From positions 6,053 through 70,052 of the IMG/VR virus record IMGVR_UViG_3300020048_000115: a DNA stretch of 64,000 nucleotides; one strand, given 5' to 3'. Below are positions 27,916 through 51,905 of the stretch, in pieces. This stretch comes from a virus. The notes beneath the pieces are model-generated. The model saw nothing but the letters and a program-made list of their open reading frames with translations. It ran no database searches and was not told the DNA's origin. A program made the position numbers and the translations under genes. Position 1 is the stretch's first letter; each line of letters opens with the position of its first letter.

Positions 27916-28018
27916 GTTGTATTTTCACACAAATAAAAAATAACTTGTTTTTGCTGGGTTTTTCCCTTATAATAGACTCATGGCAGGCAATAGGGCAGGC
28001 CAGAAAAAAGGAAAATTT

Positions 28019-28345
28019 ATGACTAGCAAAACTGTCAATTATACCCCAGAGCAAACCCTGAAAATGGTTTCCGATTATCAATCCGGTGCGACTGTGGAAA
28101 CCATCGCTGAAAACATGGGCAAAACTGTCCGTTCGGTTGTGGCGAAATTGTCACGCGAAAAAGTTTATGTGGCAAAATCTTATGTAACCAAAACGGGCGC
28201 ACCCGTGGTTAAAAAAGACGCGCACGCTGACGCAATCGCGGCAATTTTGGGCCTGAGCGAAGCCGAAGCCGATTCACTGACAAAAGCGAATAAAACCGCA
28301 CTAGAGAAAATTTTCTCTGCGCTGGCGAATTCTCGCCCAATCTGA
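28019..28345 (+). CDS. small HTH protein, paralog family A (108 aa)
   Basis: MTSKTVNYTPEQTLKMVSDYQSG ... AKLSREKVY. In-frame start inside track ORF 27980..28345. Confidence 0.6.
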   Translation: MTSKTVNYTPEQTLKMVSDYQSGATVETIAENMGKTVRSVVAKLSREKVYVAKSYVTKTGAPVVKKDAHADAIAAILGLSEAEADSLTKANKTALEKIFSALANSRPI

Positions 28346-28788: not shown

Positions 28789-28797
28789 TATATAATA

Positions 28798-28822
28798 ACC
28801 CGCTTCGGCGGGTTTTATACTA
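28798..28822 (+). terminator. intrinsic terminator
   Basis: aacccgc-ttcg-gcgggtttt. Confidence 0.55.
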
Positions 28823-28823
28823 T

Positions 28824-28935
28824 GTAATACTTGAGTTTTCAACTCGAAACGAAAAGTAGTACTTTCGTTTGCGCCAAAATTATACCATAATTTTGGCATC
28901 GGTGTCAAGGATTATTTGCTAGGTGTTTACACTTA
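28824..28935 (+). repeat. early intergenic cassette copy 8
   Basis: Palindrome ccaaaattataccataattttgg (28874-28896), ggtgtcaagga, then ggtgtttacacttatgttgtttttacgcac. Confidence 0.6.
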
Positions 28936-28942
28936 TGTTGTT

Positions 28943-28957
28943 TTTACGCACTTGGCA
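28943..28957 (+). promoter_or_regulatory. sigma54-type -24/-12 element TGGCACGATTCTTGC (copy 1)
   Basis: Exact match to TGGCAC-N5-TTGC with G at position 7. Confidence 0.45.
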
Positions 28958-28969
28958 CGATTCTTGCGC

Positions 28970-28984
28970 CAGAAAAACCTGGCA
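28970..28984 (+). promoter_or_regulatory. sigma54-type -24/-12 element TGGCACGATTCTTGC (copy 2)
   Basis: Identical 16-mer, 27 bp downstream of copy 1. Confidence 0.45.
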
Positions 28985-29014
28985 CGATTCTTGCTTATAA
29001 TTAAAAATGCATAA

Positions 29015-29082
29015 TTTATAATTATCCAGACGCGAATGATTGTCGTTTACAAATGCAAATGATTCGTATTTGCACCCTGGAT
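29015..29082 (+). repeat. three iteron-like 17-mers GCRAATGAKTSGTMTTT
   Basis: gcgaatgattgtcgttt (29015), gcaaatgattcgtattt (29037), gcgaatgagtcgtatta (29066), with regular spacing of about 22-29 bp. Confidence 0.5.
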
Positions 29083-29175
29083 GCGAATGAGTCGTATTAC
29101 CGCGATTTAGGGTCATGTAGTACTTTTGGGCTATATCAGCACTGGTTTTTAGAACTTTAGTACTACAAAAGTGTG

Positions 29176-29240
29176 CTGCGCCAGTGGAAAACCTTGCGCC
29201 AGTGGAAAAACTCAGAGGTTTCCTGCGCCAGTGGCCCGTC
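29176..29240 (+). repeat. three CTGCGCCAGTGG(AAAA) direct repeats
   Basis: At 29177, 29197 and 29225. Covered only by a spurious ORF. Confidence 0.5.
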
Positions 29241-29311
29241 AAGTGCAAAATCTTGCATGTGGGTTACGCGCCCATTATATAGTGGAAAACCTTGCGTGTC
29301 AAGTAAAAAAT

Positions 29312-29347
29312 TTCTTTATTGAACAAAGTGTTGGAGTTTTGTATAAT
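29312..29347 (+). promoter_or_regulatory. sigma70 promoter TTGAAC-17-TATAAT for the 44-aa gene
   Basis: ttgaacaaagtgttggagttttgtataat. Confidence 0.55.
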
Positions 29348-29374
29348 TGTTTTATCAACAGGAGAGAACCACAC

Positions 29375-29509
29375 ATGACAGACGCCGAATTTTTCGCACA
29401 AATCCAAGAAGACTACTTCCACGAATTTGTGGGAACCGAACTCCGAGAAATTTTCGTGTGTACCGATGCACACGATGAAATTTTTGAATTTGACGATGTT
29501 CCCTTCTAA
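29375..29509 (+). CDS. small acidic protein (44 aa, MTDAEFFAQIQEDYFHEF...)
   Basis: TTGAAC-17-TATAAT promoter and AGGAGAG ribosome-binding site. In-frame within spurious track ORF 29171..29509. Confidence 0.5.
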   Translation: MTDAEFFAQIQEDYFHEFVGTELREIFVCTDAHDEIFEFDDVPF

Positions 29510-29555
29510 TGATATAATAATATCTTAAACAGCGCAGAAACCAACTAAAGGACAT

Positions 29556-29867
29556 ATGATGACTAAAGAAATCAAACAAAACTACACCCCAGCCCAAACC
29601 CTGGATCTCGTTAACCGCTACAAGGCGGGCGAGGCCGTTGAGACCATCGCAGAAGCCCTGGGCAAGACTACTCGCTCAGTGGTTGCCAAACTTTCACGCG
29701 AAGGCGTGTACCAGGCCAAGACTGCGACTAAGGGTCAGGCCCGAGTCAAAAAATCTGAGCTGGTTGACCAACTTGCACACCTCTGTGGTGTTGCTCCAGA
29801 AATGTTTGACTCACTGGAGAAAGCCAACCACGACGTTCTCGAAGCACTGGTTGCAAAAATTGCTTAA
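29556..29867 (+). CDS. small HTH protein, paralog family A (103 aa)
   Basis: NYTPAQTLDLVNRYKAGEAVETIAEALGKTTRSVVAKLSREGVY. Confidence 0.6.
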   Translation: MMTKEIKQNYTPAQTLDLVNRYKAGEAVETIAEALGKTTRSVVAKLSREGVYQAKTATKGQARVKKSELVDQLAHLCGVAPEMFDSLEKANHDVLEALVAKIA

Positions 29868-29892
29868 CCTTAGGGTCAAGAAATTTTATCTT

Positions 29893-29918
29893 GATTTAGA
29901 ATACAAAAACTAGTATAA
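29893..29918 (+). promoter_or_regulatory. sigma70 promoter TTGATT-17-TATAAT (drives the small RNA candidate)
   Basis: ttgatttagaatacaaaaactagtataat. Confidence 0.55.
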
Positions 29919-29924
29919 TAGTTA

Positions 29925-30047
29925 TATAAACAGTCGGGAAGGCAAGAGGGCTAGGGAGCCATTGCCGTTTGATTACCCTCGGCCACAGCCACTAACCAGT
30001 TACTATAAGTACTTATATCTGTGCGACACGAGTGGGCGTCAACGACT
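29925..30047 (+). ncRNA. candidate small RNA (about 120 nt) between promoter and U-tract
   Basis: TTGATT-17-TATAAT promoter at 29893-29918. 5-prime aaacagtcg (29929-29937) pairs perfectly with 3-prime cgactgttt (30034-30042), followed by TTTATTT. No ORF. Confidence 0.4.
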
Positions 30048-30058
30048 GTTTTTATTTA

Positions 30059-30087
30059 CTTGATTGTATAGTTTGTTTACTGTATAA
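30059..30087 (+). promoter_or_regulatory. sigma70 promoter TTGATT-17-TATAAT (drives the large RNA candidate)
   Basis: ttgattgtatagtttgtttactgtataat. Confidence 0.55.
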
Positions 30088-30093
30088 TAGATT

Positions 30094-30826
30094 TATTGGG
30101 TGACAGCGGAAACGGGATTTATCTGTTATGCGTCTTAATTGTGGGGAATACGTTCCGAGCCACAGCCCTTAGCTTCTAGAATTGATTGTTTTGGCTAGGC
30201 ATAGCTTTACAACCTGACACATATACTTGCACGCATGGCTACCTCGGCCGAGGTTTTAAACGCGCTTCTTGCAAGGTACTAAGATCAGCGCGTATTCGCA
30301 AAGCAATCAATTCTAGGTGTTATGAACCCAGATTTCGATCTGGATAACAACTTAATAATAACCGAAGTCTAGTTATTACCTAGTCTATTATGGGTACCTT
30401 CTGAAGATGGCTTGACCCTAAACTAACGCAAAATGTATCCGGTATGCAAACCGTTGTTAGTTTTAAATAAGCCGAAACCCTCATCACACGGCAGCCTTAC
30501 GCGATGTATTCCCATATGTCCAAGGCAGCAGTTGAGGGTCAAGGTGTAGGACTTTAGCCAAGCCTGTTAGCACTGGTGAAAGAACACCTAAAAATACAGC
30601 TATCTGCCAAACCAAGGCTCTGGCCGGCCCCAGGAATGTAGACAAGCGGGATTTGTGAACCCGGCATCGGCTAATCGCTGTTGCGCAAACACGCCAACCG
30701 ACTCTACTAGCGACCTTAATCCGTAACCACAGAGGAAACCTGCACGGATGGTACTAGACAACCATTAAAAAATCTCGAGATTCAACTGCCCGCACGGACT
30801 TGCTCCCGTAGCGGGCTTTTGTTTGT
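30094..30826 (+). ncRNA. candidate large structured noncoding RNA (about 730 nt)
   Basis: No ORF of at least 60 aa in any frame across 29914-31013. TTGATT-17-TATAAT promoter at 30059-30087. Internal long-range inverted repeats (ctagaattgattg at 30176 / caatcaattctag at 30307). Intrinsic terminator at 30788-30826. Confidence 0.4.
30788..30826 (+). terminator. intrinsic terminator at the end of the ORF-free RNA locus
   Basis: gcccgcacgg-acttgctc-ccgtagcgggc, followed by TTTTGTTTGTGTTT. Confidence 0.55.
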
Positions 30827-30940
30827 GTTTAATTTTACACTTAAAAATATTGTGGTGCTGCGCCAAATTATAAGTGGTTAGGCAATTTAACGCAAGTGGA
30901 TTTTTTAACATCTGACCCTAAGCCGAGCTTGCAACACACG

Positions 30941-30990
30941 CAAAAAAGCCGTATATCGTTACAGATATACGGCTTTTGCGCTTTTAAGTT
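30941..30990. terminator. bidirectional terminator flanked by inverted ATCTGACCCTAA elements
   Basis: aagccgtatatc-gttacag-atatacggctt with A-run and T-run flanks. Motif copies at 30909-30921 (plus) and 31024-31036 (minus). Confidence 0.6.
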
Positions 30991-31013
30991 AAATTAAATG
31001 CAATTAAGTCGAT

Positions 31014-31325
31014 TTACGTTGCTTTAGGGTCAGATAGCGCAGTGCTAATCATAACCAAGACGTTTTTGTTGACTTTTTCTAGCGATTCCAGCAATTCTAG
31101 GTCGCAGTCTAGTAATTCAGCAATTTGCTCTATGTGCTCCGACTTTTTCACCGGAATTTCACCACGTTTGTTAACATAAGTCTTTTTCTGGTACACACCA
31201 ACGGAGCTTAGCTTAGCAATCACCGATCGCTCTGGCACGTCCAGCTCCTTAGCTATAACCAAAACTGGCACCTTGTTGGTGTACAGCTCGATTATACGGT
31301 CAGTAATTTCTTTGGTATAACGCAT
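31014..31325 (-). CDS. small HTH protein, paralog family A (103 aa)
   Basis: ELDVPERSVIAKLSSVGVYQKK, same family. A bidirectional terminator lies downstream. Confidence 0.55.
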   Translation of the reverse strand: MRYTKEITDRIIELYTNKVPVLVIAKELDVPERSVIAKLSSVGVYQKKTYVNKRGEIPVKKSEHIEQIAELLDCDLELLESLEKVNKNVLVMISTALSDPKAT

Positions 31326-31326: not shown

Positions 31327-32169
31327 TTAAACTGCCTCCGCTAGCCAAGGCAGATTACAAGGGGCATTGTCCGACCCTAAGTCAGTGCCTGCAACGTACT
31401 CGTGACGAAAAATAGCTCCCTGCACTAGTGGGTTTGGCATCAAGTCCCAGTCATTGGGTTCCAAGACCATGTACTCAGTGCGTAAGCTAGGGTTAGCTAC
31501 CCAAATCTGCGTTAACATAGTGCCCACAAGTTTCGGCGCTTTGCCTAGCTCTGTGTTTTGCATTCCTCGCAAACACCAAGCAGTGGTTGGTGATTGTTTG
31601 GTTCCGGCTCGTAGTCCCGATTTAATTGTTAGGCCCTGATCTCGTAGCTCTAGTAATCGTTCCGGCCCTAAGCCATAGCAAATTTCGTTGGGTAGTAAAT
31701 CTAGTTCTAAATGCGACTCGTCCGGCTGCCAGAGCATTGCTTCGAGCAAGTTCTTGTCGATAAGCGGACAACTCTCAGTAATATTCCATCGTGAATAGTT
31801 GATGCCTTGGAATTTTTTAGCTCCCATTAAGATTAAAGGAACTAGAGCTGAGTACGATGCAAATTCAGGATTGACCTGAGATTTTACTAAGCTACCCCTT
31901 TTAAGCTTTGTAGCTACTCGCCACAAGCCTATGTCGTAGTCTGTGACGATGTTGTGTCTGGCAGTGGCTGCACAGTCTACTAAGTTATCTTTGAATACTA
32001 GTCTCCACGAACCAAAATAACTACCAATCTGTGGCAGCATCCATGAATTGTAAGTGGTTAAGTGATGGGTTTTAGCTAGGTCTTCTAGCTGTGAGTCGTT
32101 TAAGCGGGCGTATAGCTCGAACGGAAAGTCAGTGATGTTGTTTGATTTTAGTTTTAACATGAATAACAT
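31327..32169 (-). CDS. hypothetical protein (280 aa)
   Basis: Long ORF that overlaps the downstream gene by 1 nt. Confidence 0.5.
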   Translation of the reverse strand: MLFMLKLKSNNITDFPFELYARLNDSQLEDLAKTHHLTTYNSWMLPQIGSYFGSWRLVFKDNLVDCAATARHNIVTDYDIGLWRVATKLKRGSLVKSQVNPEFASYSALVPLILMGAKKFQGINYSRWNITESCPLIDKNLLEAMLWQPDESHLELDLLPNEICYGLGPERLLELRDQGLTIKSGLRAGTKQSPTTAWCLRGMQNTELGKAPKLVGTMLTQIWVANPSLRTEYMVLEPNDWDLMPNPLVQGAIFRHEYVAGTDLGSDNAPCNLPWLAEAV

Positions 32170-36987: not shown

Positions 36988-37911
36988 TTACCACCGAGCC
37001 TCATTTGCGATAAGTTTACGAAACTGAATCCAGCCGCGTAAGTTACCTGACCATAAATCGCTGTTGGCTGAAACGTGTGAGACACCTGGTTCCCAAGTTT
37101 CTGGCTCAAATCTACACATAGACTCCACATTCATTGGTGAGGCTTGATGCTCAACCGGAGATGCGTGAGCTGGCTCAGATTCAATTAGTTGCTGATAAAT
37201 CTTTAAGGCCTTTTCATAGCTATCGTCCGATTTACGATACGACACTTGAGCACAACAGCTAGAGCTGATAACAAGCGCTTCTTGCGCTGTGATATAATTA
37301 TCTTTACTATCAACATAGTGCAAAACACCGCTACGGCTATCACGGTAAACATGAACATAAGGGACATGCCATTCTCCTGGGTTTAGTAGTTGCGGCTGAC
37401 TAGCTGTATAAGCTAGGCGCATTTTATTAGCTAGTACAGCAATTTCCGGCTGTGCATCGGCATGGTCTCGCAACCAAAAGAAATTTGCCCATTCAGTTCC
37501 TGAAATTACAGTTTTCATCAACATCCAAGGCTCTGTGATGCGATTAGTAATTTGTTTATGCAATTCTAGGGCATTAAGGTCTAAGGCAAAACTAATTGCG
37601 CTATCTCGGGCAGCGTTCCAAGTTCTACGAGCCCTTTCCTGGTCCAAGTCATCTAGTTCAACTTTGGCTTTCATACCCGGCTGGTTTTTACCCCAGTACA
37701 CTGGAGTAGCGGTATTATGCTTGATATGATTTAACATTGCCGTTACAGGAATTGCCCGAGAACTTGCTGAGTTCTTAGACAACATACGATGAGTATTGAG
37801 TTCAGCTAAGATAAACCTAGGATACTCGATTTCCATAGTAACCATACGATTATTTTCTGCGTCAATACTATCAGCAATAATTTTAGCAGTAATCAAATCT
37901 TTGGGGTTCAT
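36988..37911 (-). CDS. ThyX-like (flavin-dependent thymidylate synthase-like) protein, 307 aa
   Basis: LNTHRMLSKNSASSRAIP resembles the ThyX signature RHRx7S, but with T in place of the first R. Confidence 0.35.
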   Translation of the reverse strand: MNPKDLITAKIIADSIDAENNRMVTMEIEYPRFILAELNTHRMLSKNSASSRAIPVTAMLNHIKHNTATPVYWGKNQPGMKAKVELDDLDQERARRTWNAARDSAISFALDLNALELHKQITNRITEPWMLMKTVISGTEWANFFWLRDHADAQPEIAVLANKMRLAYTASQPQLLNPGEWHVPYVHVYRDSRSGVLHYVDSKDNYITAQEALVISSSCCAQVSYRKSDDSYEKALKIYQQLIESEPAHASPVEHQASPMNVESMCRFEPETWEPGVSHVSANSDLWSGNLRGWIQFRKLIANEARW

Positions 37912-40893: not shown

Positions 40894-41892
40894 ATGTTCA
40901 ATCAAACTATTAATCGTGTTGGCTTTGCATGTAAAATTCAAGAATCAGAATCTAAAGTCGATCCTAAACTGAATATCAAAGGCACAACCATTACTTGGCT
41001 TAATGCCCAGACTCGTGACCGTGCAGTTGAACGACTCTGGGACTTAATGCGCGGTAATATTACTGCACTAAGTAACCAAGTAGACTATATAGGCAAATTG
41101 CCTGCAAATCAGCGTATGTTTCGTATTAGCTCAGATGTATTGACTGCATACACACATGATTCATGGATGTGGTTTTACTTTGAACCAGATGTTGTGGCTT
41201 TTTTAGAATCGAACTTATCAAAAATCGGCGACAAAGCCAGGGCTTTGGACGTTAAATTATCTTTTCACCCTGGACAATTTTGTGTATTAGCATCGGAAAC
41301 AGATTATGTGGTTGAACGAAGTATTCTTGAGTTTGAGTATCATTGCGACCTCATCAGGTACATGGGCTTTGGTCGAGAGTTTCAAGATTTTAAATGCAAT
41401 GTTCACATCGGCGGTAGACAAGGTCCTGGAGGAATACGGGCAGCTCTAAAAAAGCTCAGCCCCGAAGCACGCAACGTCTTGACTATTGAAAACGCAGAGT
41501 TTACCTGGGGCTTAGACGCGTCACTAGAGTTGATGTTTGACTGTGCCTTAGTCTTGGATATTCATCATCACTGGATTCATACTGGTGAATACATTACCCC
41601 GGACTCTGACGACTTCAAAGCTGTGTGTGAATCTTGGCGTGGCGTTAGACCCACAATTCACTATTCAGTATCGCGTGAAGATATACTAGTTGAACATAGT
41701 GCCAGTATTCTGCCTGATCTGAGTGCACTTAAAGTCGCTAAATTTACTAGTGCCAAGCTCAGAGCACACTCAGAATACTACTGGAATACGGCTGCAAATA
41801 ATTGGGCCTTGACTTTTAGTCCTCATGCTGATATAATGTGTGAATCAAAACAAAAAAACTTGGCATCACAGCAACTAATTGATATGCTATGA
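40894..41892 (+). CDS. uvdE: UV-damage endonuclease UvdE (332 aa)
   Basis: RVGFAC, FRISSDVL, SFHPGQF, NVHIGG, LTIENAE and LDIHHHWIH align with conserved UvdE TIM-barrel motifs. Confidence 0.7.
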   Translation: MFNQTINRVGFACKIQESESKVDPKLNIKGTTITWLNAQTRDRAVERLWDLMRGNITALSNQVDYIGKLPANQRMFRISSDVLTAYTHDSWMWFYFEPDVVAFLESNLSKIGDKARALDVKLSFHPGQFCVLASETDYVVERSILEFEYHCDLIRYMGFGREFQDFKCNVHIGGRQGPGGIRAALKKLSPEARNVLTIENAEFTWGLDASLELMFDCALVLDIHHHWIHTGEYITPDSDDFKAVCESWRGVRPTIHYSVSREDILVEHSASILPDLSALKVAKFTSAKLRAHSEYYWNTAANNWALTFSPHADIMCESKQKNLASQQLIDML

Positions 41893-42509: not shown

Positions 42510-42584
42510 CGGCCGTTCGTATAATGGATAATACAGCAATCTTCTAAGTTGTGAATATGGGTTCGATTCCTGTACGGCCGACCA
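42510..42584 (+). tRNA. tRNA-Arg (anticodon UCU)
   Basis: Acceptor cggccgt/acggccg, T-loop GGTTCGATTCC, anticodon loop cTTCTAa, CCA encoded. Confidence 0.6.
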
Positions 42585-42650
42585 GTTAAATTACAAACTT
42601 GATTGTTTGCTTAAATCAGATTATAATATAGTCTGATTTGGAGAAATAAT

Positions 42651-42974
42651 ATGAACGCATACACACCAGACCGTTGGGTCGTCTTAAAAATTATAACTCC
42701 CAAAGAAACTATTCGCAAAGTATTTGCTGGATGGTATGGTGGTTATGCTGGCAGCGATTTGTGGAAACTTAATTCAGGAATCACTGATATTCGTGAACAA
42801 GATGACTTGTTTGAGTTTGATGGTTATTCGGGCAGTACTTACTTCTGCCACCGTAATAGCTACGGCATGAGCGGCTATATGCACAGCGTGCTGACTTCAT
42901 GGCTTAACCAAGCTGAAACACGGGGTGATGTTCAGATTGATATAATTGATCTTGCGGATATTGTCGTTGTGTGA
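42651..42974 (+). CDS. hypothetical protein (107 aa)
   Basis: ORF with a GGAG ribosome-binding site. Confidence 0.4.
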   Translation: MNAYTPDRWVVLKIITPKETIRKVFAGWYGGYAGSDLWKLNSGITDIREQDDLFEFDGYSGSTYFCHRNSYGMSGYMHSVLTSWLNQAETRGDVQIDIIDLADIVVV

Positions 42975-43491
42975 TATAATATAGGCTAATTAGGAGATAT
43001 TATGGCAGGCTATTCACGAGAGTTTTTGATTGATGCGTATCTTAGCAGGTACTTGAAAGTTACAGGAAATCTTCCAGCACTGCGTAATATGACTGAGCAG
43101 CACTATGACAGAGTTGGCAAGGACAGTTTCCGTGTGTCTGCCTCGCTAGATGCTGATGCCCTCAAAAAATTTAAACTTGATTCCGGACGCAAATCGTAGT
43201 ATAATTAATGTTCTTTCAGAGATTATGGCGTGGCCAGCGGAGAATAACGATCACTTCGGTGTAAAAATCGGCTCTCGTCGTAGTAACATAGTTTTTGAGA
43301 GACCTTTTTAGTATAATAAATACTTGGTTTGATTGATATGAAGATGACGGGCATAGTCAAGAGTCTCATTTTTAATCAAATCCATTTTAGAAGCATATTA
43401 CTCGCAGGACTGCCGAATCGGTCTGTGACCCCCAGTCGTAACTAAGCGTGAGAACTTACGGGGTGCGATTCTCATAATGTGTTTCTAAAAT

Positions 43492-43577
43492 GGAAGTATG
43501 GCTGAGAGGCTGAAGGCGGGGGACTGTAAATCCTCTCTGTAAAAAGCGCGGTGGTTCGAATCCATCTGCTTCCACCA
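43492..43577 (+). tRNA. tRNA-Tyr (GUA), type II
   Basis: Acceptor ggaagta/tgcttcc, loop cTGTAaa, long variable arm, T-loop GGTTCGAATCC. Confidence 0.6.
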
Positions 43578-43879
43578 ATCAACCCAGGGATGGGAAGACC
43601 AGATCAGACCAACAGTATCTAGGCCTAGAGCCAAGAATTCTACTGCGGTGGCGTAACAACTGACTGAACTAGGCTGTCGCCTTGACCTAGTTCCCATATA
43701 TTAGTACTCTGTAACTCAAGAGGCAGAGAGTCGATGTTTAAATTGATTGCGTGTAGGTTTCGAGTACCTACCAGAGTACTAATATATGGGTCGGTAGATT
43801 AACATGGTTAAATCACTGAAGTCGACATACAACACACTTGAGCAAATATATTGACCCTGGGGCCCCGCAAAGGTACATT

Positions 43880-43968
43880 CAATTGCCGTTCAACCTGAGT
43901 TCGAATACATGGTATCGTGTTGTATAATTTAAGGAAGCAGGTTCAAGTCCTGCCTGACCCACCATATT
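43880..43968 (+). tRNA. tRNA-like 3-prime module (5-prime partner ambiguous)
   Basis: T-arm gcaggTTCAAGTcctgc + ctgaccc + ACCA ending at 43968. The only matching 5-prime acceptor, gggtcgg, is at 43787, which implies an intervening sequence or a fragment. Confidence 0.3.
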
Positions 43969-44138
43969 TAAGCACAGTACTTCACTGATAAGGAAGACTG
44001 GTCGGCTGTATTCAACTGGCTAGTACTGTGCTTAATTATGGTTGCAGCAGACAGGGGTCTAGAACTCTGAATCGACTAGGAATAGGTTTGTAACCACCGG
44101 CAAGTTCCGACCGGCAATCATAACTAATAAAGGATGTT

Positions 44139-44279
44139 TATGCGTATTTTCACAAAAGTAGATAATAAATTGATTGTTTATGAAACCAATACTGATGATG
44201 TTGCGGTCGCAATTCAGCTAGTAAAAGACGAATTGGGTACAGCTCACAAAACTCCAGTTCTTGCATTAGTAAAGTATTA
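44139..44279 (+). CDS. small protein (46 aa)
   Basis: AAAGGA ribosome-binding site then ATG, between tRNAs. Confidence 0.35.
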
Positions 44280-44552
44280 AGAAAGTTATCTGAGTGTATT
44301 GTCAAAGGCAGACGGCCGGGTTTGGAACCTGGAGGTTGGGATCTCGGAATTCCCCACTCAGACCATTTTAGTTTGTATATTGCTAGATTCCGATTTAGTT
44401 ACGGAGCTTTACGTACTTGAGACGCATTAGTCCTAGGAAACTAATGTGGTATGGTATGAATTCTGGAATAGGTCTGTGTCATGAACAGAGTACGCCACGA
44501 TCACAGCCTTAGCGGGCTGGGTAGTAAACAATATACAAACTAAAATGAATTA

Positions 44553-44637
44553 AGCGCAAGTGGTGGAATGGTATACACGATGGTCTTAGAAGCCATTGCC
44601 GAAAGGATTGAGAGTTCGAGTCTCTCTTTGCGCACCA
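44553..44637 (+). tRNA. tRNA-Leu (UAG), type II
   Basis: Acceptor gcgcaag/tttgcgc, loop cTTAGaa, long variable arm, T-loop GAGTTCGAGTC. Confidence 0.65.
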
Positions 44638-44644
44638 GATATTA

Positions 44645-44720
44645 GGGGATGTAGCTCAGCTGGGAGAGCGGCTGCTTTGCAAGCAGTAGGTAGCGGGTTC
44701 GAGTCCTGTCATCTCCACCA
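44645..44720 (+). tRNA. tRNA-Ala (UGC)
   Basis: ggggatgtagctcagctgggagagc with a G3:U70 pair, loop tTTGCAa, GGTTCGAGTCC. Confidence 0.75.
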
Positions 44721-44969
44721 AGGATTAGTATGAAATACGACTTTATTAAGACTAGTTGGTTTAATGGGGAGTGGTTGTTGTGGAATGACTACTTTTATAA
44801 TGCCGGTAACAGTTACAGTGCCTACAGACTAGGCCCGATTATTTTAAGAATTTATCATGAAAACACGAAAACCTAGGAATCACGTAGTTATCGCTTTAAT
44901 CAAGCGTAACGGCAGTGGTTCTCACACAAAAACCCACAAGCAGCTTCGTGGTGAATGGAAGCGCATACT

Positions 44970-45044
44970 GGACGTATAACTTAGCGGCTAAAGTAACTGG
45001 CTTTTAACCAGTAAATCAGAGTTCGATTCTCTGTGCGTCTACCA
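44970..45044 (+). tRNA. tRNA-Lys (UUU)
   Basis: Anticodon stem actgg/ccagt, loop cTTTTAa, T-arm cagagTTCGATTctctg, CCA. Confidence 0.65.
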
Positions 45045-45130
45045 TATAAAAACACACTGCTTAAAAAGGAACGAAAGTTCTGGGCTAGGCCACGGCATCG
45101 CAAGGTGGGTAGTGTGTTTCTATATGGTAT

Positions 45131-45222
45131 AGCTCTATAGTTTAATGGTAAAACGGCGGATTTATATCCCGTAAGCAACAGATAATTGGTTCATCTGGGT
45201 TCGAGTCCCGGTGGAGCTACCA
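45131..45222 (+). tRNA. tRNA-like, type II scaffold with aberrant anticodon arm
   Basis: Acceptor agctcta/tggagct, D-arm gtttaatggtaaaac, T-arm ctgggTTCGAGTcccgg, CCA. The anticodon region ggcggatttatatcccgt does not fold into a canonical 7-nt loop. Confidence 0.35.
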
Positions 45223-45226
45223 AACT

Positions 45227-45311
45227 GGAAGATGTGCTGCAAGGTGCGGCAGGAGTTTGCTAAACTCTCGTTCAGAAATGGGCTGACAGGTTCGATTCCT
45301 GTATCTTCCGC
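45227..45311 (+). tRNA. tRNA-Ser (GCU), type II
   Basis: Acceptor ggaagat/atcttcc, loop tTGCTAa, long variable arm, GGTTCGATTCC. Confidence 0.65.
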
Positions 45312-45540
45312 CAACAAACAAAGGATTTATATGCCCTGTATGAAATGTGCTAATGGTAAGTGGAAGTATGGTGAAGCTGGCCGTTGCCAGTTTGATACTC
45401 TGAAGGCTTGTAAAGCAGCAGCCGCAGCTATTCATGCAAAACCTAAAAAAGAACTAGAAACCAAAGGTATGAATTCTAGTAGTAAGATTCTGGGTAACTC
45501 GTTTACTCATGTGATTTTTGATGAACTAAGTTCTTAGGTG

Positions 45541-45614
45541 TGACTATAGTGTAACGGCCAGCACCCGAGATTGTGATTCTTTTAGTCTGAGTTCGATTCT
45601 CAGTAGTCACCCCT
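45541..45614 (+). tRNA. tRNA-His (GUG)
   Basis: Acceptor gtgacta/tagtcac, discriminator C, loop tTGTGAt, T-arm ctgagTTCGATTctcag. Confidence 0.55.
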
Positions 45615-45625
45615 AAGAGCTTTCG

Positions 45626-45701
45626 CCATAGTAGCTCCAATGGTAGAGCAGCGGATTGAAAATCCGTGTGTTACTGGTTCGAGTCCAGTTTATGGTACCA
45701 T
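45626..45701 (+). tRNA. tRNA-Phe (GAA)
   Basis: D-arm tagctccaatggtagagc, loop tTGAAAa, GGTTCGAGTCC, CCA. Confidence 0.65.
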
Positions 45702-45763
45702 ACCTCTCCCTGACTGGCGGAGTATAATGTGATAAGTTGCCAGTCCTAATTCCTGCCCCGTAG

Positions 45764-45838
45764 CTCAGAGGAAGAGCAATCGGTCGATAACCGATAGGCC
45801 GACATTTCGAAATTGTCCGGGGCAACCAATTTAGTCTC
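45764..45838 (+). tRNA. tRNA-Ile (GAU), tentative
   Basis: Acceptor tgccccg/cggggca perfect, D-arm tagctcagagg, anticodon stem atcgg/ccgat with loop tcGATaa, T-loop TTCGAAA, CCA. Confidence 0.45.
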
Positions 45839-45886
45839 TTATACGAGGACTTTAAACTTCGTTAAACACACAACACAGGAGACATT

Positions 45887-46120
45887 ATGTCCACAAAAAC
45901 CCCTTTCGAACTTCGTGCAGAACTACTTCGTCAAGCACAAAACCTTCTTGAGTCTCAGTATGATGCTCAAATCGACTTTGCAACCAAGGCTTTTTATGCT
46001 TTGGTAAAAGAAGGAACTGCAACAGCAGATAACTTCAAGCAGTTTACACCTAAGTTCCCAACAACCGAAGATATTCTTAAGCAAGCTAAAGAATTCTACG
46101 CGTTTGTAAATGCTAAGTGA
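45887..46120 (+). CDS. hypothetical protein (77 aa)
   Basis: ACAGGAGA ribosome-binding site. Lies between tRNAs. Confidence 0.45.
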   Translation: MSTKTPFELRAELLRQAQNLLESQYDAQIDFATKAFYALVKEGTATADNFKQFTPKFPTTEDILKQAKEFYAFVNAK

Positions 46121-46426
46121 ACTAATGCAGCGTGTGCAGGCTATGTTTAAACCGTACACGCTGGAAGACTTCATGAACGATGCAAGTCCTCAAGATCACA
46201 AAGACGTTCAAAGACTTGAAAAAATTTGGAACGATTATCAAAGTCGCAAACTTTTCAATAGTTGTTATTAAATATTACGAAGTTTGATGTTTTTTGATAC
46301 AAAAATAACACCCAAGTAATTACTATAGACGGAGTCCTTTAGGGCTTTAAACAGCATAAATGTCTTCAGTGACAACGAAATGTCACGCCGGAGAGTGTAA
46401 CCGGCACTAATTATTCGGCCAGAGCT

Positions 46427-46455
46427 TGTCTCTGGCTTTTTAGTTTTGTAACACA
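46427..46455 (+). terminator. intrinsic terminator
   Basis: ggccagag-cttg-tctctggc, followed by TTTTT. Confidence 0.55.
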
Positions 46456-46524
46456 GTGATAGTGTACGGCCTTCATACGGCCTAGGTCAGTAGTTCGAAT
46501 ATACCTAAAATTGCTAAATAAAAT

Positions 46525-46600
46525 ATCTCCGTGGTGTAATTGGCAGCACGTTAATCTACAAAATTATTAGTCAAGGTTTGAGTCTATTGGGGCGCTAGTA
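46525..46600 (+). pseudogene. degenerate tRNA-like pseudogene (paralog of tRNA-Trp at 51686)
   Basis: Shares the D-arm tggtgtaattggcagcac and the T-loop GGTTTGAGTCT with the Trp tRNA. Acceptor and T stems no longer pair. Confidence 0.4.
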
Positions 46601-46665
46601 ATCTTTCTTGAAATTATTGCCTTAGAGTGTTATACTTAATTTTTTTAAGTCAATAAAATGAATAT

Positions 46666-47289
46666 ATGTTAGCAAATCAGTTAAATATAGAGTTAGTTAA
46701 ATCATTAGTACAATCAGGTGGTGGGTTGGTGTACAGTAATAGAGGTAAGCCTACTATTTCTTGTATAGATAAACCAATATTTAGATTGGTAGTATCTCGT
46801 AATATGACAGATATCATACGAGATACTATGAATAGTGAAAATATCATATATTTATTAATATCTGAAGATACTTTGCAAGGAAAAGAATATTTTCCTGATA
46901 AATACTTTGAGAATACTGAATATGTAGGCAGGCCTTACCTATATGGGTTATTCGATTGTTTTACTTTAGTAAAAGATTGGTTTAGCAGAGAAAAAAACGT
47001 AAATTTACCTTGGAACTTAGATAGACCTTTTAAATGGTGGGATACTGAAGCCAGTATTTATTTAAAAGAATATACTAAAGTAGGCTTTAGAGATACTACA
47101 GAACTAAATCCGGGGTCAGGTTTCTTCTCAAAAATGGGCGGAAGTACCGTGGCCAACCATGCTGGTATATATTTAGGAAATAATACTATTCTTCACCATC
47201 CTGCAGGTAGATTTTCCTGTATAGAACCAATCACAGTACCTATATTAAATAGTATAACTAATATAGTAGAGTATAAAGGATATACATGA
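46666..47289 (+). CDS. NlpC/P60-family peptidase (cell-wall hydrolase), 207 aa
   Basis: Catalytic Cys context GLFDCFTLVKDW and His context NHAGIYLGNNTILHH. First gene of an AT-rich module. Confidence 0.55.
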   Translation: MLANQLNIELVKSLVQSGGGLVYSNRGKPTISCIDKPIFRLVVSRNMTDIIRDTMNSENIIYLLISEDTLQGKEYFPDKYFENTEYVGRPYLYGLFDCFTLVKDWFSREKNVNLPWNLDRPFKWWDTEASIYLKEYTKVGFRDTTELNPGSGFFSKMGGSTVANHAGIYLGNNTILHHPAGRFSCIEPITVPILNSITNIVEYKGYT

Positions 47290-48176
47290 GATTATTAGTA
47301 GGACAAAGAGTACCCTATGATACAACAGGGATACCTAATACAGATTCCCCCACATTAATTAATATGGGAATAGGTGGCGCAGCTATTATACGAAATAATG
47401 ATAGTACTGTACTCAGTAATGCATTTACCCAAGAAAATTTAGAACAACTTGTATTTAATTCTTATAATTTTGACTATCTTTCTATTAATGAAGTTATTAC
47501 GGTTAATAATATATATTTACCGGAACGAAATCCACTAATAGTCACAACTGGTGGAAAACGCGGGGGCTCTTTTAAAAAGCCTCATACAGGAATAGCAAAA
47601 TATTTAGTAAAGTCTTTGCCTGGTAATTACACACCTATTACTTTTGGGTTTTGTATTACTACAGGTAAGGCTTTAAGTACTTCTACTCTATATGCTAATG
47701 GAGACTCATTTAGAGTTATTTCTTTAAATTCCTCAACTACAGAAGTTTCTATAAGTGAAGTTTACTATATAGGAAATACCGGATTACCTGCATTAAATTT
47801 AAGTTTTTCAATAATGATTTGCGATCAGGGGATTGATAGTTCCCAACTAAATACTAGTGACAAGGCTTTTTATGCAGACCCTAACAGGGTAATATTAGGA
47901 AATGGAAAAATAGATTCTACTAGAGATTATATAATAATGAATCCTTCTGGATTTGCCTTTAATATAGCCCCTTCTATTGAAATGAGTCTTACGACCGATG
48001 TTGTTTTATTTTATGGTCAAAGACTTACTTCAGCAGCAACTAGGTTACGTACTTATGAAAATGGTAATATAATAACCAGTATACAAAATGCCTACGGTAT
48101 CTGGCAAAGTGCTAATGGGGGCGATTGGCCTTACATCATAACACCTGGAACAACTGTAGGAATTTCTAGACCATGA
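47286..48176 (+). CDS. hypothetical protein (296 aa), AT-rich module
   Basis: Translationally coupled. Asn/Thr/Ser-rich, fibre-like composition. Confidence 0.45.
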   Translation: MRLLVGQRVPYDTTGIPNTDSPTLINMGIGGAAIIRNNDSTVLSNAFTQENLEQLVFNSYNFDYLSINEVITVNNIYLPERNPLIVTTGGKRGGSFKKPHTGIAKYLVKSLPGNYTPITFGFCITTGKALSTSTLYANGDSFRVISLNSSTTEVSISEVYYIGNTGLPALNLSFSIMICDQGIDSSQLNTSDKAFYADPNRVILGNGKIDSTRDYIIMNPSGFAFNIAPSIEMSLTTDVVLFYGQRLTSAATRLRTYENGNIITSIQNAYGIWQSANGGDWPYIITPGTTVGISRP

Positions 48177-49071: not shown

Positions 49072-49077
49072 GAATAT

Positions 49078-51898: not shown

Positions 51899-51905
51899 GA
51901 TTTTT

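What the first reader, a model, noticed from the sequence alone, without database searches (positions are those of the whole stretch)
29890..31013. 1.1 kb ORF-free locus with two strong promoters, a small RNA candidate of about 120 nt and a large structured RNA candidate of about 730 nt
No ORF of at least 60 aa exists in any of the six frames between 29914 and 31013. That is unusual in a phage this densely coded. Two near-consensus TTGATT-17-TATAAT promoters lie at 29893-29918 and 30059-30087. The first transcript would have 9-nt perfectly complementary ends (aaacagtcg / cgactgttt) followed by a U-tract. The second ends at an intrinsic terminator (30788-30826). It contains long-range inverted repeats such as ctagaattgattg / caatcaattctag, 120 nt apart. 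The local GC content is higher than the flanks. I found no RNase P, tmRNA or group II domain V signatures. Large ornate phage RNAs of the GOLLD/ROOL type are one possibility. An origin of replication is another.
Basis: seen in the sequence. Interest (0 to 1): 0.75.

Follow-up and report, generated by a model that had tools for sequence, protein, structure and literature searches.

The report
Phage noncoding-RNA cluster with hammerhead ribozyme

Summary
Window 29868-31013 has no ORF of at least 60 aa in any frame, stop-codon recoding does not rescue one, and substitutions show no codon periodicity.

About 60 related ~100-kb phage contigs keep the same layout: two convergent paralogous HTH genes around a 0.64-2 kb noncoding gap. 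Comparing them resolves these parts:
- P1 drives a ~129-nt sRNA (29926-30054).
- P2 drives a ~730-nt transcript of abutting modules:
  - Y-shaped unit A (30098-30168)
  - module X (30176-30316)
  - unit B (30315-30381)
  - a type I hammerhead (30395-30546, cleavage after C30540)
  - a ~280-nt 3' fragment ending at a bidirectional terminator
- A conserved minus-strand promoter, P3, faces that terminator.

All modules show compensatory base changes. Relatives lose module X or have a tRNA-Glu in its place, and many carry a tRNA-Glu just before the ribozyme. That argues against a single GOLLD/ROOL-like RNA or an origin.

Rfam matches none of the modules, not even the hammerhead, probably because of its long stem insertions. 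The units occur only in this phage lineage. What the RNAs do is unknown. My best reading is a ribozyme-processed operon of stable phage ncRNAs.

The parts
29556..29867 (+). HTH1: 103-aa helix-turn-helix gene (T5 A2/D5-like), left boundary of the locus
   Evidence: ORF. 43% identical to HTH2. PHROG 1725/323 and precomputed weak Pfam PF26822 Phage_T5_A2. Third-position substitution excess against L128/L129.
29870..29878 (+). TTAGGGTCA box upstream of P1; probable operator half-site
   Evidence: The 9-mer occurs 11 times in the window against 0.38 expected. GGGTCA is conserved at this position in 47 relatives. A box in the same orientation relative to transcription sits upstream of P3.
29891..29919 (+). 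Promoter P1 (TTGATT-17-TATAAT)
   Evidence: CTTGA and TATAAT are conserved at 80% or more across 47 relatives.
29926..30054 (+). sRNA1, ~129 nt: closing helix ACAGUCG (29930-36) / CGACUGU (30043-49) followed by a U-tract
   Evidence: Alignment A3 of 24 relatives: sequence-invariant closing helix, inner GGGC/GCCC helix, and 5 of 13 predicted pairs with compensatory changes. Ends are inferred from promoter spacing and the U-tract.
30060..30088 (+). Promoter P2 (TTGATT-17-TATAAT)
   Evidence: conserved in relatives.
30098..30168 (+). Y-shaped unit A: GGGU / variable arm / CUUAAU junction / UGUGG..CCACA arm / GCCC
   Evidence: Most conserved stretch of the locus, up to 92% identity to relatives. 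Alignment. Hit end to end by model R2, which was built only from units B and C (18.5 bits, E 0.0018). Combined covariation.
30176..30316 (+).
   Evidence: I2, I13. Alignment A5 of 12 sequences: 26 predicted pairs, 20 with compensatory changes. Absent in many relatives; tRNA-Glu in its place in L069.
30315..30381 (+). Y-shaped unit B, paralogue of unit A: P1 AGGU/ACCU, P2 GUUAU/AUAAC, P3 hairpin, junction AACUUAAU, P4 AAUAAC/GUUAUU with a CGAA..CUAG loop
   Evidence: Alignment A2: 93% of cells paired, 75 double-change cells against 19 in shuffles (0 of 500), and all 6 P4 pairs covary. R2 scores 66.9 bits.
30395..30546 (+). Type I hammerhead ribozyme. Stem I 30395-30400 / 30541-30546. Core CUGAAGA 30401-30407 plus an extra U30408. 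Stem II 30409-30414 / 30468-30473 with a 54-nt insertion. GAA 30474-30476. Stem III 30477-30483 / 30533-30539. C17 = C30540. Predicted cleavage between 30540 and 30541.
   Evidence: Relatives: alignment A1 with an invariant core; RNAalifold recovers three stems; covariation 0 of 500 shuffles. Model R1 hits the window only here (29.7 bits, E 1.6e-6). The unconstrained MFE of 30393-30550 is this fold. The base of stem II covaries with L128. Cleavage itself is inferred.
30541..30824 (+). 3' cleavage fragment, ~280 nt. Contains the conserved stretch GGUGAAAGAACACCUAAAAAUACAGCUAUC (30573-30602).
   Evidence: Partial conservation with L044, L066, L039, L042 and L041 and with L128, L129 and L131. Internal structure not resolved.
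30788..30824 (.). Intrinsic terminator shared by the P2 transcript and the minus-strand P3 transcript
   Evidence: Relatives have AAAACAAAAGCCCC..GGGGCTTTTGAAC, which reads as a terminator on both strands. In the window the minus-strand U-tract is weak.
30867..30921 (-). Minus-strand promoter P3 (-35 TTGCGT 30895-30890, 17-nt spacer, -10 TATAAT 30872-30867) with a TTAGGGTCA box at 30921-30913
   Evidence: Read. In ~45 relatives it is CACTTGACA-N17-TGGTATAAT preceded by TTAGGGTCAG. It fell below the scan threshold in the window because of a weak -35.
30788..30862 (-). Putative short minus-strand transcript from P3 (starting around GGCGCAG) to the shared terminator
   Evidence: Inferred from conserved promoter-to-terminator spacing of 40-100 nt in relatives. 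Ends uncertain in the window.
30944..30977 (.). Terminator hairpin of the HTH2/P280 operon: 14-bp perfect stem flanked by A and T runs
   Evidence: I4; conserved position in relatives.
31014..31325 (-). HTH2: 103-aa paralogue of HTH1, right boundary of the locus, followed by the conserved orphan gene P280 (31327-32169, -)

Best explanation
The region is a dedicated noncoding-RNA gene cluster of a lineage of uncultured ~100-kb phages. These phages are distantly T5-like and carry many tRNAs, a tmRNA and a Ro60/Y-RNA pair.

**Layout**
- Host-type sigma-70 promoter P1 makes a ~129-nt stem-closed small RNA that ends at its own helix plus U-tract.
- Promoter P2 makes a ~730-nt precursor of independently folding modules placed end to end: Y-shaped unit A, module X, Y-shaped unit B, a type I hammerhead ribozyme, and a ~280-nt 3' RNA that ends at an intrinsic terminator.
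- A convergent promoter P3 on the other strand makes a very short transcript that stops at the same terminator.

**Proposed mechanism**
- The hammerhead folds co-transcriptionally and cleaves after C30540.
- That splits the precursor into a ~446-nt 5' RNA ending in a 2',3'-cyclic phosphate and a ~280-nt 3' RNA starting with a 5'-hydroxyl.
- The ribozyme therefore acts as a built-in processing site that sets defined ends. From general knowledge of E. coli RNA decay, such ends should slow 3'-exonucleases, polyadenylation and 5'-monophosphate-dependent RNase E entry.

**Shown versus inferred**
- Shown: absence of coding, conservation of the promoters, the secondary structures with covariation, hammerhead core identity, modularity, and restriction to this phage lineage.
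- Inferred: transcription start and end points, actual self-cleavage (the window copy has N7 = A and one extra U between A9 and G10.1), end-protection, and any downstream function of the RNAs.
For: - **Noncoding.** Stops in all six frames; no rescue by recoding; no suppressor tRNA. Substitutions against L128 and L129 are 52/54/54 and 58/64/61 by position mod 3. The three flanking genes show third-position excess with p between 1e-5 and 1e-17.
- **Conserved locus.** HTH1(+) / gap / HTH2(-) / P280(-) in 56 loci. P1, P2 and P3 hexamers are conserved.
- **Hammerhead.**
  - A CUGAYGAR..CGAAA motif occurs once per gap, always on the + strand.
  - Alignment A1 has invariant C3 U4 G5 A6 G8 A9, G12 A13 A14, A15.1-U16.1 and H17.
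  - RNAalifold finds stems I, II and III unaided.
  - 87 double-change cells against 31.5 in shuffles, 0 of 500.
  - Model R1 hits 64 of 78 loci once each, and hits the 64-kb window only at 30447-30548.
  - The window MFE equals the hammerhead fold at -43.0 kcal/mol.
  - Close relatives covary at the base of stem II. L131 has a canonical core, and L034 shares the extra U.
- **Units A and B.** 93% paired with P4 covarying at 6 of 6 pairs. R2 finds exactly two copies in the window. It finds 83 copies in 775 kb of relatives, all on the + strand and all but one (L054) inside the HTH1-HTH2 gap. 232 double-change cells against 62 in shuffles.
- **Module X.** 20 of 26 predicted pairs have compensatory changes.
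- **Modularity.** X is absent in many relatives, with A-to-B spacing of 9-17 nt, and L069 has tRNA-Glu in its place. tRNA-Glu(UUC) sits directly 5' of the hammerhead in L012, L013, L019, L029, L050, L067 and L131.
- **Processing role.** In the L055 clade the cleavage site is followed at once by a terminator hairpin, so cleavage would only trim the terminator.
Against: - No expression data; promoters and terminators are consensus matches only.
- The window's hammerhead deviates from the canonical form: an extra U30408 between A9 and G10.1, and a 54-nt stem II insertion. It could be slow or inactive.
- Rfam hammerhead models detect neither it nor the canonical copy in L005, even at E up to 5-10.
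- A competing helix, 30411-30424 with 30530-30543, would bury the cleavage site and costs only 3.5 kcal/mol more.
- The modules abut without spacers, and X overlaps unit B by 2 nt. That would also fit one multi-domain RNA.
- No function can be assigned to any module, and no target complementarity of 14 nt or more was found in the window.
- The shuffle controls do not remove phylogenetic relatedness.
Confidence: 0.7

Rival explanations
1. The P2 transcript is one large multi-domain 'ornate' RNA in the sense of GOLLD, ROOL or OLE. It would work as a single ribonucleoprotein scaffold, and the hammerhead-like element would be an inactive or regulated structural domain.
For: The modules abut with almost no spacer, and X and unit B share 2 nt. 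Module order A-X-B-HHR is kept in many relatives. The window's hammerhead has a non-canonical insertion and a competing helix. The whole 733 nt folds with z = -2.4.
Against: No Rfam large-RNA family matches at E up to 10. X is missing in about half the relatives, and L069 has a tRNA in its place; tRNA processing would sever A from B. The gap ranges from 0.64 to 2 kb with different module sets. The hammerhead core is invariant across 37 diverse sequences, which implies selection for catalysis. The L055 clade has the ribozyme but not units A and B, apart from one unit A copy in L065.
Confidence: 0.12
2. The RNAs, sRNA1 and/or the Y-shaped units, are Y-RNA-like partners or substrates of the phage-encoded Ro60 (TROVE) protein at 49957-51267. 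They would tether it to host nucleases, as bacterial YrlA/YrlB and Thermus phage Yrl1/2 do.
For: The phage encodes a TROVE + vWA protein. Phage Ro60 proteins bind phage-encoded Y-like RNAs and host PNPase (PMC12135203). sRNA1 has the Y-RNA outline: 5'/3' ends forming a sequence-invariant helix, then a purine-rich GGGAAGG stretch. The unit B P4 loop carries an invariant CGAA, which in L042 matches GNCGAAG exactly (motif from PMC4201824).
Against: A YrlA-like RNA with T- and D-arm mimics already lies directly upstream of the Ro60 gene at 49823-49927 (Rfam YrlA 35.6 bits, E 1.8e-5, below gathering). Known Y RNAs lie within 4 kb of Ro60 on the same strand, whereas this locus is 19 kb away. No YrlA or Y_RNA hit in the locus at E up to 10. 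The CGAA here is in a hairpin loop, not next to the terminal stem.
Confidence: 0.07
3. The region works at the DNA level, as a replication origin primed by strong promoters or as a regulatory hub of operator sites, and the transcripts are by-products.
For: There are three strong promoters. TTAGGGTCA boxes are enriched 11 against 0.38 expected and sit upstream of P1 and P3. Three paralogous DNA-binding HTH genes lie nearby. In relatives the boxes form inverted repeats around -35 elements.
Against: The compensatory changes preserve pairing on one strand in helices up to 140 nt apart, which DNA-level function does not predict. The hammerhead core is strand-specific. There are no iterons or tandem repeats and no GC-skew inflection. 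The locus lies between converging, not diverging, gene blocks. Operator boxes explain the promoter flanks but not the RNA bodies.
Confidence: 0.05
4. The Y-shaped units are ligand-binding aptamers that allosterically control the adjacent hammerhead, making a riboswitch-ribozyme.
For: The units are three-way junctions of about 70 nt with invariant junction and loop nucleotides, like small riboswitch aptamers. Unit B lies 13 nt upstream of hammerhead stem I in the window, at about the same distance in most relatives. An alternative helix could switch the ribozyme off.
Against: In seven or more relatives a complete tRNA-Glu sits between unit B and the ribozyme. Unit A is 225 nt or more away. There is no downstream gene to regulate. 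The alternative helix does not involve the units.
Confidence: 0.05

Closest known systems
Type I hammerhead ribozymes in bacteriophage and prophage intergenic regions (Perreault et al. 2011, PMC3088659)
   Same: Three-stem junction with the canonical CUGANGA / GAAA / U-H core. Located in a phage intergenic region. Proposed role in cutting long phage transcripts into defined pieces.
   Different: Stem III carries a conserved ~60-nt extension with a UUCCCA-type loop. In the window's subgroup, stem II carries a further 54-nt insertion and there is an extra U after A9. Rfam 15 models miss all copies. It processes a noncoding RNA array rather than flanking mRNAs.
Stable small RNAs co-transcribed with tRNAs in T-even and T5 phages (T4 species 1 and 2 / RNA C and D; T5 tRNA-region RNAs). 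Recalled from memory, not checked here.
   Same: Phage-encoded, abundant, structured small RNAs of unknown function that are genetically interchangeable with tRNA genes in an array. The phage is distantly T5-like (portal 40% identical).
   Different: The locus is separate from the main tRNA cluster (42.5-57.3 kb), has its own promoters, and uses a self-cleaving ribozyme. No sequence similarity was tested or found.
GOLLD / ROOL / OLE large ornate RNAs
   Same: Long noncoding transcript, phage-associated as GOLLD and ROOL are, with many conserved helices.
   Different: No covariance-model match. Modules are lost or swapped among relatives. The transcript is predicted to be cut by its own ribozyme. 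Conservation is per module, not across a single architecture.
Bacterial and phage Y RNAs (YrlA, Yrl1/2) with Ro60
   Same: The same phage encodes Ro60. sRNA1 has terminal-stem-plus-loop proportions and a size of ~129 nt, within the 80-130 nt range.
   Different: Not adjacent to Ro60. No tRNA-like T and D arms. No YrlA model hit. A better YrlA candidate exists at 49823-49927.
Engineered ribozyme- or tRNA-punctuated polycistronic RNA arrays (for example hammerhead/HDV-flanked guide RNAs)
   Same: A strong promoter, tandem structured RNAs, and a cis-cleaving ribozyme or tRNA that defines ends and removes the terminator. The L055 clade shows this most clearly.
   Different: It is natural, has only one ribozyme per array, and the other module boundaries have no identified processing signal.

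Membership tests
Hammerhead ribozyme (type I) | Three helices meeting at a junction, with stems II and III closed and stem I open | tested here: met
   RNAalifold on 37 relatives recovers stems I, II and III. The window's MFE of 30393-30550 gives the same topology.
Hammerhead ribozyme (type I) | Core C3 U4 G5 A6 N7 G8 A9 between stems I and II | tested here: met
   Invariant in alignment A1. The window has CUGAAGA at 30401-30407 with N7 = A.
Hammerhead ribozyme (type I) | G10.1-C11.1 directly following A9 | tested here: inconclusive
   Relatives: G-C in 36 of 37. The window, L128, L129 and L034 have one extra U between A9 and the G-C pair. From memory, an extra nucleotide at this spot is tolerated in a viroid hammerhead (CChMVd). 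Not verified here.
Hammerhead ribozyme (type I) | G12 A13 A14, then an A15.1-U16.1 pair, then a non-G H17 at the cleavage site | tested here: met
   Invariant CGAAAC and GGGU(C/A) in A1. The window has G30474 A A, A30477-U30539 and C30540.
Hammerhead ribozyme (type I) | Compensatory changes in the stems | tested here: met
   Stem II: 4 of 5 pairs covary. Stem I: 3 of 6. Stem III: 4 of 9. No shuffle of 500 reaches the observed score. Window against L128: GGCUU/AAGCC to GGUCU/AGACC.
Hammerhead ribozyme (type I) | Score above Rfam gathering threshold for a hammerhead model | tested here: not met
   No hammerhead hit in the window at E up to 10, in 13 relatives at gathering, or in L005 at E up to 5. 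This is attributed to the ~60-nt stem III extension. It is a curation criterion, not a biochemical one.
Hammerhead ribozyme (type I) | Site-specific self-cleavage giving 2',3'-cyclic phosphate and 5'-OH ends | not testable with these tools
   Needs in vitro transcription or end-specific RNA-seq.
GOLLD / ROOL / HEARO / group I or II intron / RNase P / 6S | Match to the family covariance model | tested here: not met
   Rfam 15: nothing at gathering in the 64 kb, and only terminator-like chance hits at E up to 10 in 29700-31100.
GOLLD / ROOL type large RNA | One conserved architecture spanning the whole RNA | tested here: not met
   Gap length is 0.64-2 kb with variable module content. X is absent, or a tRNA sits in its place.
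Y RNA / YrlA | Encoded within ~4 kb of the Ro60 gene on the same strand (criterion from PMC4201824) | tested here: not met
   The locus is ~19 kb from the TROVE gene at 49957-51267. The criterion is quoted.
Y RNA / YrlA | tRNA-like domain (T- and D-arm mimics) and a GNCGAAN0-1G motif beside the terminal stem | tested here: not met
   No YrlA hit in the locus, whereas 49823-49927 aligns to YrlA with both arms. CGAA occurs only in the unit B hairpin loop.
Riboswitch | Aptamer in the 5' leader of a regulated gene, with an expression platform | tested here: not met
   No ORF downstream on the + strand before the terminator.
Replication origin | Iterons or initiator boxes, an AT-rich unwinding element, a skew switch or diverging transcription | tested here: not met
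   Only two-copy short direct repeats. No skew inflection. Flanking genes converge.
Protein-coding gene with stop-codon reassignment | One frame open when a single stop codon type is read through; a suppressor tRNA; 3-periodic substitutions | tested here: not met

The most novel reading that the evidence does not exclude
The Y-shaped ~70-nt units are a previously undescribed class of phage-specific functional RNA. They have the invariant features GGGU...CUUAAU...GAA..CUAG...GCCC and occur as two paralogues per genome. Together with module X and sRNA1, they would be matured by a dedicated long-armed hammerhead variant into end-protected stable RNAs. The most novel readings not excluded are that they act as protein or small-molecule decoys or sponges against a host defence or RNA-repair pathway, or that they are themselves a new catalytic RNA. 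They sit interchangeably with tRNA-Glu, in a phage that also brings its own tRNAs, tmRNA and Ro60/Y RNA.
Probability: 0.3. Interest if true: 0.8.

Novelty: new variant of a known kind. Interest (0 to 1): 0.62.

Why it matters
Phage noncoding RNAs other than tRNAs are poorly catalogued, and self-cleaving ribozymes in phages still lack a demonstrated biological role.

This locus provides a natural, conserved case. A hammerhead sits inside an array of covariation-supported structured RNAs rather than between mRNAs. In one clade its only apparent job is to trim off a terminator. That makes the idea of ribozymes as RNA maturation devices directly testable.

The locus also yields four candidate new RNA families: sRNA1, the Y-units, module X and the long-armed hammerhead subtype. 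Current Rfam models miss all of them.

It also ties these RNAs to a phage lineage unusually invested in RNA biology, with 23 tRNAs, a two-piece tmRNA and Ro60 plus a YrlA-like RNA. The fact that Rfam misses canonical-core hammerheads with large stem III insertions suggests such variants are under-counted in metagenomes.

Tried and rejected
- **Rfam.** Gathering thresholds on the whole window and on 13 relatives, and E-value mode on the locus and on L005. Nothing but tRNAs and terminator-like chance hits.
- **Cultured phages (INPHARED).** No DNA match for the locus. No protein match for P280 or HTH1. Only the portal matches, at 40% identity to T5-like phages.
- **Stop-codon recoding or hidden ORF.** Rejected.
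- **Drum motif.** I recalled a link to hammerheads. The paper does not support it and Rfam gives no hit.
- **Y-RNA idea.** Raised on finding the TROVE gene, then weakened by the YrlA-like RNA next to that gene.
- **Trans-target search.** No complementarity of 14 nt or more to the rest of the window. The 12-13-mers found are at chance level, except for the GACCCTAAAC box shared with two promoters.
- **Pseudoknot between hammerhead loop II (UGCAAGU) and the upstream linker (AACUU).** Inspected by eye. No consistent covariation, so dropped.
- **Pairing of sRNA1 GGGAAGG with the stem III loop UUCCC.** Both are near-invariant, and relatives with a UUCAA loop keep the same sRNA1, so there is no support.
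- **TTAGGGTCA as multiple hammerhead sites.** Rejected: model R1 finds only one hammerhead in the window. The box is better read as an operator half-site.
- **Metagenome-contig scan.** Not used, because a family-general pattern would be swamped by chance matches.
Full report
**1. The observation**

I read window 29600-31300 and listed ORFs. A 103-aa gene on the + strand stops at 29867, and a 103-aa gene on the - strand stops at 31014. No ORF of at least 60 aa lies between them; the longest is 53 aa.

Letting any one stop codon type be read through opens at most 345 nt. The 23 tRNAs in the window include no suppressor.

The consensus scan finds TTGATT-17-TATAAT at 29891-29919 and 30060-30088, and a terminator at about 30799-30824. 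The repeat finder confirms two paired elements:
- the complementary ends of the first transcript (29924-36 / 30043-55);
- the long-range repeat (30176-93 / 30299-316).

GC is 0.41-0.51, no higher than in the two adjacent genes. Single-sequence folding is only mildly better than shuffles, with z = -2.0 and -2.4. So the anatomy is as described, but the sequence alone would not prove function.

**2. Context**

The window is a tailed phage. It has a portal protein and a protease-capsid fusion, 23 tRNAs and a two-piece tmRNA.

The portal is 40% identical to those of T5-like vibriophages. No cultured phage matches the locus, P280 or HTH1.

The two flanking 103-aa genes are paralogues, 43% identical. 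They belong to an HTH family annotated as T5 D5/A2-like. A third paralogue lies at 27980-28345.

**3. Relatives**

HTH1 retrieved 78 IMG/VR loci. In 56 of 80 loci the order HTH1(+) / gap / HTH2(-) / P280(-) is kept. Apart from two mis-delimited loci (L002, L076), the gaps are 638-2052 nt and their longest stop-free runs are 73-154 aa.

Closer relatives came from P280 homologues: L128 and L129 at 81% amino-acid identity, and L131 at 77%.

Against L128 and L129, substitutions in 29925-30826 fall 52/54/54 and 58/64/61 over the three phases. HTH1, HTH2 and P280 show third-position excess with p between 1e-5 and 1e-17.

**4. The small RNA from P1**

In 47 aligned gaps, the GGGTCA box, the CTTGA -35 and the TATAAT -10 of P1 are conserved. 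So are the first nucleotides of the transcript, ACAGUCGGGAAGG.

Twenty-four sRNA1 sequences share three features:
- a sequence-invariant closing helix, ACAGUCG/CGACUGU, followed by a U-run;
- an inner GGGC/GCCC helix;
- variable covarying hairpins.

The window copy lacks the CUUAAUGAAU segment that most relatives have. I place sRNA1 at about 29926-30054.

**5. The P2 transcript is modular**

The most conserved stretch, up to 92% identity, is 30098-30168 directly after P2. It has the form GGGUGACAGCGG / variable hairpin / ACGUCUUAAU / UGUGG..CCACA / GCCC.

A second element with the same architecture lies at 30315-30381.

- **Units B and C.** An alignment of 21 units gives a Y-shaped fold: P1 of 4 bp, P2, a P3 hairpin, the junction AACUUAAU, and P4 with a CGAA..CUAG loop. 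93% of cells are paired. There are 75 double-change cells against 19 in shuffles (0 of 500), and all six P4 pairs covary.
- **Unit A is the same kind.** A covariance model built only from units B and C finds unit B (66.9 bits) and, end to end, unit A (18.5 bits, E 0.0018). It finds nothing else in the 64 kb.
- **Locus-specific.** In 775 kb of relatives the model finds 83 copies, all on the + strand and all but one (L054) inside the HTH1-HTH2 gap. The pooled alignment keeps 88% pairing, with 232 double-change cells against 62. That alignment is fitted to the model, so it leans towards the structure.
- **Module X.** Between the units lies module X (30176-30316). 14 of those pairs, and 20 of 26 predicted pairs overall, show compensatory changes in 12 sequences.
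- **X is dispensable.** It is absent in many relatives, where A-to-B spacing is 9-17 nt. L069 has a tRNA-Glu in its place.

**6. The hammerhead**

While reading the alignment I noticed CUGAUGAG..CGAAAC downstream of unit B in the relatives. A strict motif occurs once per gap, always on the + strand, with covarying stem II.

Evidence from relatives:
- Thirty-seven sequences align with an invariant core: C3 U4 G5 A6 G8 A9, G12 A13 A14, A15.1-U16.1, H17.
- RNAalifold recovers the three stems unaided.
- The stems give 87 double-change cells against 31.5, and slid controls collapse.
- A model of this alignment hits 64 of 78 loci once each.

Evidence in the window:
- The same model hits the window only at 30447-30548 (29.7 bits, E 1.6e-6).
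- The 5' third is displaced there by a 54-nt insertion in stem II.
- My manual parse, checked against the ruler and against RNAfold, is:
  - stem I 30395-30400 / 30541-30546;
  - CUGAAGA 30401-30407, then an extra U30408;
  - stem II 30409-30414 / 30468-30473;
  - GAA 30474-30476;
  - stem III 30477-30483 / 30533-30539;
  - C17 = C30540.
- The unconstrained MFE of 30393-30550 is exactly this fold, at -43.0 kcal/mol.
- Close relatives keep it. L128 changes GGCUU/AAGCC to GGUCU/AGACC. L131 has the canonical CUGAUGA-G. L034 shares the extra U with a short stem II.

Rfam misses all of these, including canonical-core copies. The likely reason is the conserved ~60-nt extension of stem III.

Cleavage itself is inferred. 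It would give a ~446-nt 5' RNA and a ~280-nt 3' RNA.

**7. What the ribozyme is for**

Two comparative facts bear on this.
- In the L055 clade the cleavage site is followed at once by a terminator hairpin. The only consequence of cleavage there is to remove the terminator from the upstream RNA.
- In at least seven relatives a tRNA-Glu(UUC), ending in CCA, sits immediately 5' of stem I.

Both fit a role in RNA maturation within an array of stable RNAs. From general knowledge, the resulting 2',3'-cyclic phosphate and 5'-OH ends should hinder exonucleases, polyadenylation and 5'-end-dependent RNase E. That last step is inference.

A competing helix (30411-24 with 30530-43) would hide the cleavage site and is only 3.5 kcal/mol less stable. 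Regulated cleavage is therefore possible but unproven.

**8. The right end**

Read on the minus strand, relatives show, in order:
- the HTH2 terminator;
- a TTAGGGTCAG box;
- a near-perfect promoter, CACTTGACA-N17-TGGTATAAT;
- a start around GGCGCAG;
- after 40-100 nt, the same hairpin that terminates the P2 transcript.

The window has the same arrangement with a weaker -35: TTGCGT at 30895-30890 and TATAAT at 30872-30867. A third, very short, convergent transcript is thus likely.

**9. The TTAGGGTCA box**

The 9-mer occurs 11 times against 0.38 expected. It lies upstream of P1 and P3. It lies within an unusual promoter type, TGACCCTAAACTGnTATAAT, at 49366 (just upstream of tRNA-Met) and at 61485. 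It also coincides with the hammerhead cleavage-site strand.

In relatives it forms inverted repeats around -35 elements. It also precedes extra TATAAT-like hexamers followed by CCAGUC.., which look like additional sRNA1-like genes.

I read it as an operator half-site, perhaps for the HTH paralogues. The coincidence with the ribozyme site remains unexplained.

**10. Alternatives**

- **One large ornate RNA.** Disfavoured by the modularity and the invariant catalytic core.
- **An origin.** Disfavoured by strand-specific covariation, converging genes, absence of iterons and flat skew.
- **Y RNAs.** The window encodes a TROVE + vWA Ro60 orthologue at 49957-51267, and phage Ro60 proteins bind phage Y-like RNAs. 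However, a YrlA-like RNA with T and D arms sits directly upstream of that gene at 49823-49927 (35.6 bits, E 1.8e-5, below gathering). The 30-kb locus fails the adjacency and tRNA-mimicry criteria.
- **An allosteric riboswitch-ribozyme.** Contradicted by tRNA insertions between unit B and the ribozyme.

**11. Distribution and novelty**

The unit A pattern occurs in 47 of 2.9 million IMG/VR contigs, all from this lineage. Among 185,579 species genomes it occurs once, on a 2.9-kb contig of a Saccharibacteria MAG that is probably mis-binned.

Hammerheads in phage intergenic regions are known, so the ribozyme is a new variant of a known kind. The Y-units, module X and sRNA1 match no curated family, and none of my literature searches turned up a description of them. 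Their function is unknown.

P280, the only conserved neighbour besides the HTH genes, gave no lead.

**12. Verdict**

This is a real, conserved, noncoding-RNA cluster. The 'large ornate RNA' is better described as a ribozyme-processed array of separable structured RNAs. Interest is moderate to high for RNA and phage specialists. The decisive experiments are cleavage assays and end-specific RNA-seq.

Noticed in passing
window 49957-51267 (+) and 49823-49927 (+): The phage encodes a Ro60/Rsr orthologue (TROVE 4.7e-9 plus vWA). Directly upstream lies a YrlA-like RNA with T-arm and D-arm mimics (Rfam YrlA 35.6 bits, E 1.8e-5, below the gathering score of 69). Both sit inside the tRNA cluster.
   Followed up: partly
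window 53781-54259 (+); tRNAs 42510-57253 (+): There is a two-piece (permuted) tmRNA with tag ANDNTYALAA. There are also 23 tRNA genes, all on the + strand and none a suppressor.
   Followed up: no
window-wide, e.g. 6842, 29107, 29870, 30413, 30913, 31024, 32573, 32989, 49366, 57074, 61485: The 9-mer TTAGGGTCA/TGACCCTAA occurs 11 times against 0.38 expected. It lies upstream of P1 and P3, and at the hammerhead cleavage site. At 49352-49385 (upstream of tRNA-Met) and around 61470-61500 it is embedded in an unusual promoter, TTGACTTGT..TGACCCTAAACTGnTATAAT, with a 22-nt gap from TTGACT to TATAAT. It is probably an operator half-site.
   Followed up: partly
window 27980-28345 (+), 29556-29867 (+), 31014-31325 (-): There are three paralogous small HTH genes (PHROG 323/1725, T5 D5/A2-like). 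Relatives carry three or four copies within 6 kb. Two of them always converge on the RNA locus.
   Followed up: partly
window 28789-29555: A second ORF-poor stretch lies just left of HTH1. It has two perfect 12/12 sigma-70 promoters on the minus strand (29302-29274 and 28908-28879) and an 11/12 promoter on the + strand (29490-29518). It may be another regulatory or small-RNA region.
   Followed up: no
window 31327-32169 (-): P280 is a conserved 280-aa orphan protein always adjacent to HTH2. It has 274 environmental homologues and no Pfam or PHROG hit. Its confident all-alpha AlphaFold model (pLDDT 80) has no PDB fold match.
   Followed up: yes
L012 6854-6925, L019 7230-7304, L034 6728-6800, L069 6636-6707, L131 3672-3746; window 51824-51898: In many relatives a tRNA-Glu(UUC) lies inside the RNA locus. 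It usually sits immediately 5' of the hammerhead (tRNA-CCA-ACCCU-CUGAUGAG). In this window the only tRNA-Glu(UUC) is in the main tRNA cluster.
   Followed up: partly
relatives' 3' parts, e.g. L042 gap position 769, L025 830, L039 745, L013 776, L064 703: Downstream of the hammerhead, relatives carry GACCCTAA-N15-TATAAT/TAAAAT followed by ..AUAUCCAGUC.. These look like extra promoters driving sRNA1-like RNAs. Many also have a conserved module, AAUGAGUA..CUAGGGA..UCCCUAUAUCCC..AAAUGGUCUUG, that is absent from the window.
   Followed up: no
L132 (CAZDRR010000094.1, 2859 bp): The only hit to the unit A pattern among 185,579 species genomes is a short contig binned into a Candidatus Saccharibacteria MAG. 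It is most likely a mis-binned fragment of this phage lineage.
   Followed up: no
window 61512-62465 and 62538-63305 (+); 36988-37911 (-); 40894-41892 (+): The NAD-dependent DNA ligase appears split into two genes: adenylation plus OB domains in one, and a weak, sub-threshold BRCT match in the other. The window also encodes ThyX, a UvdE UV-endonuclease, a ClpP-like protease, rubrerythrin and an SPFH protein.
   Followed up: no
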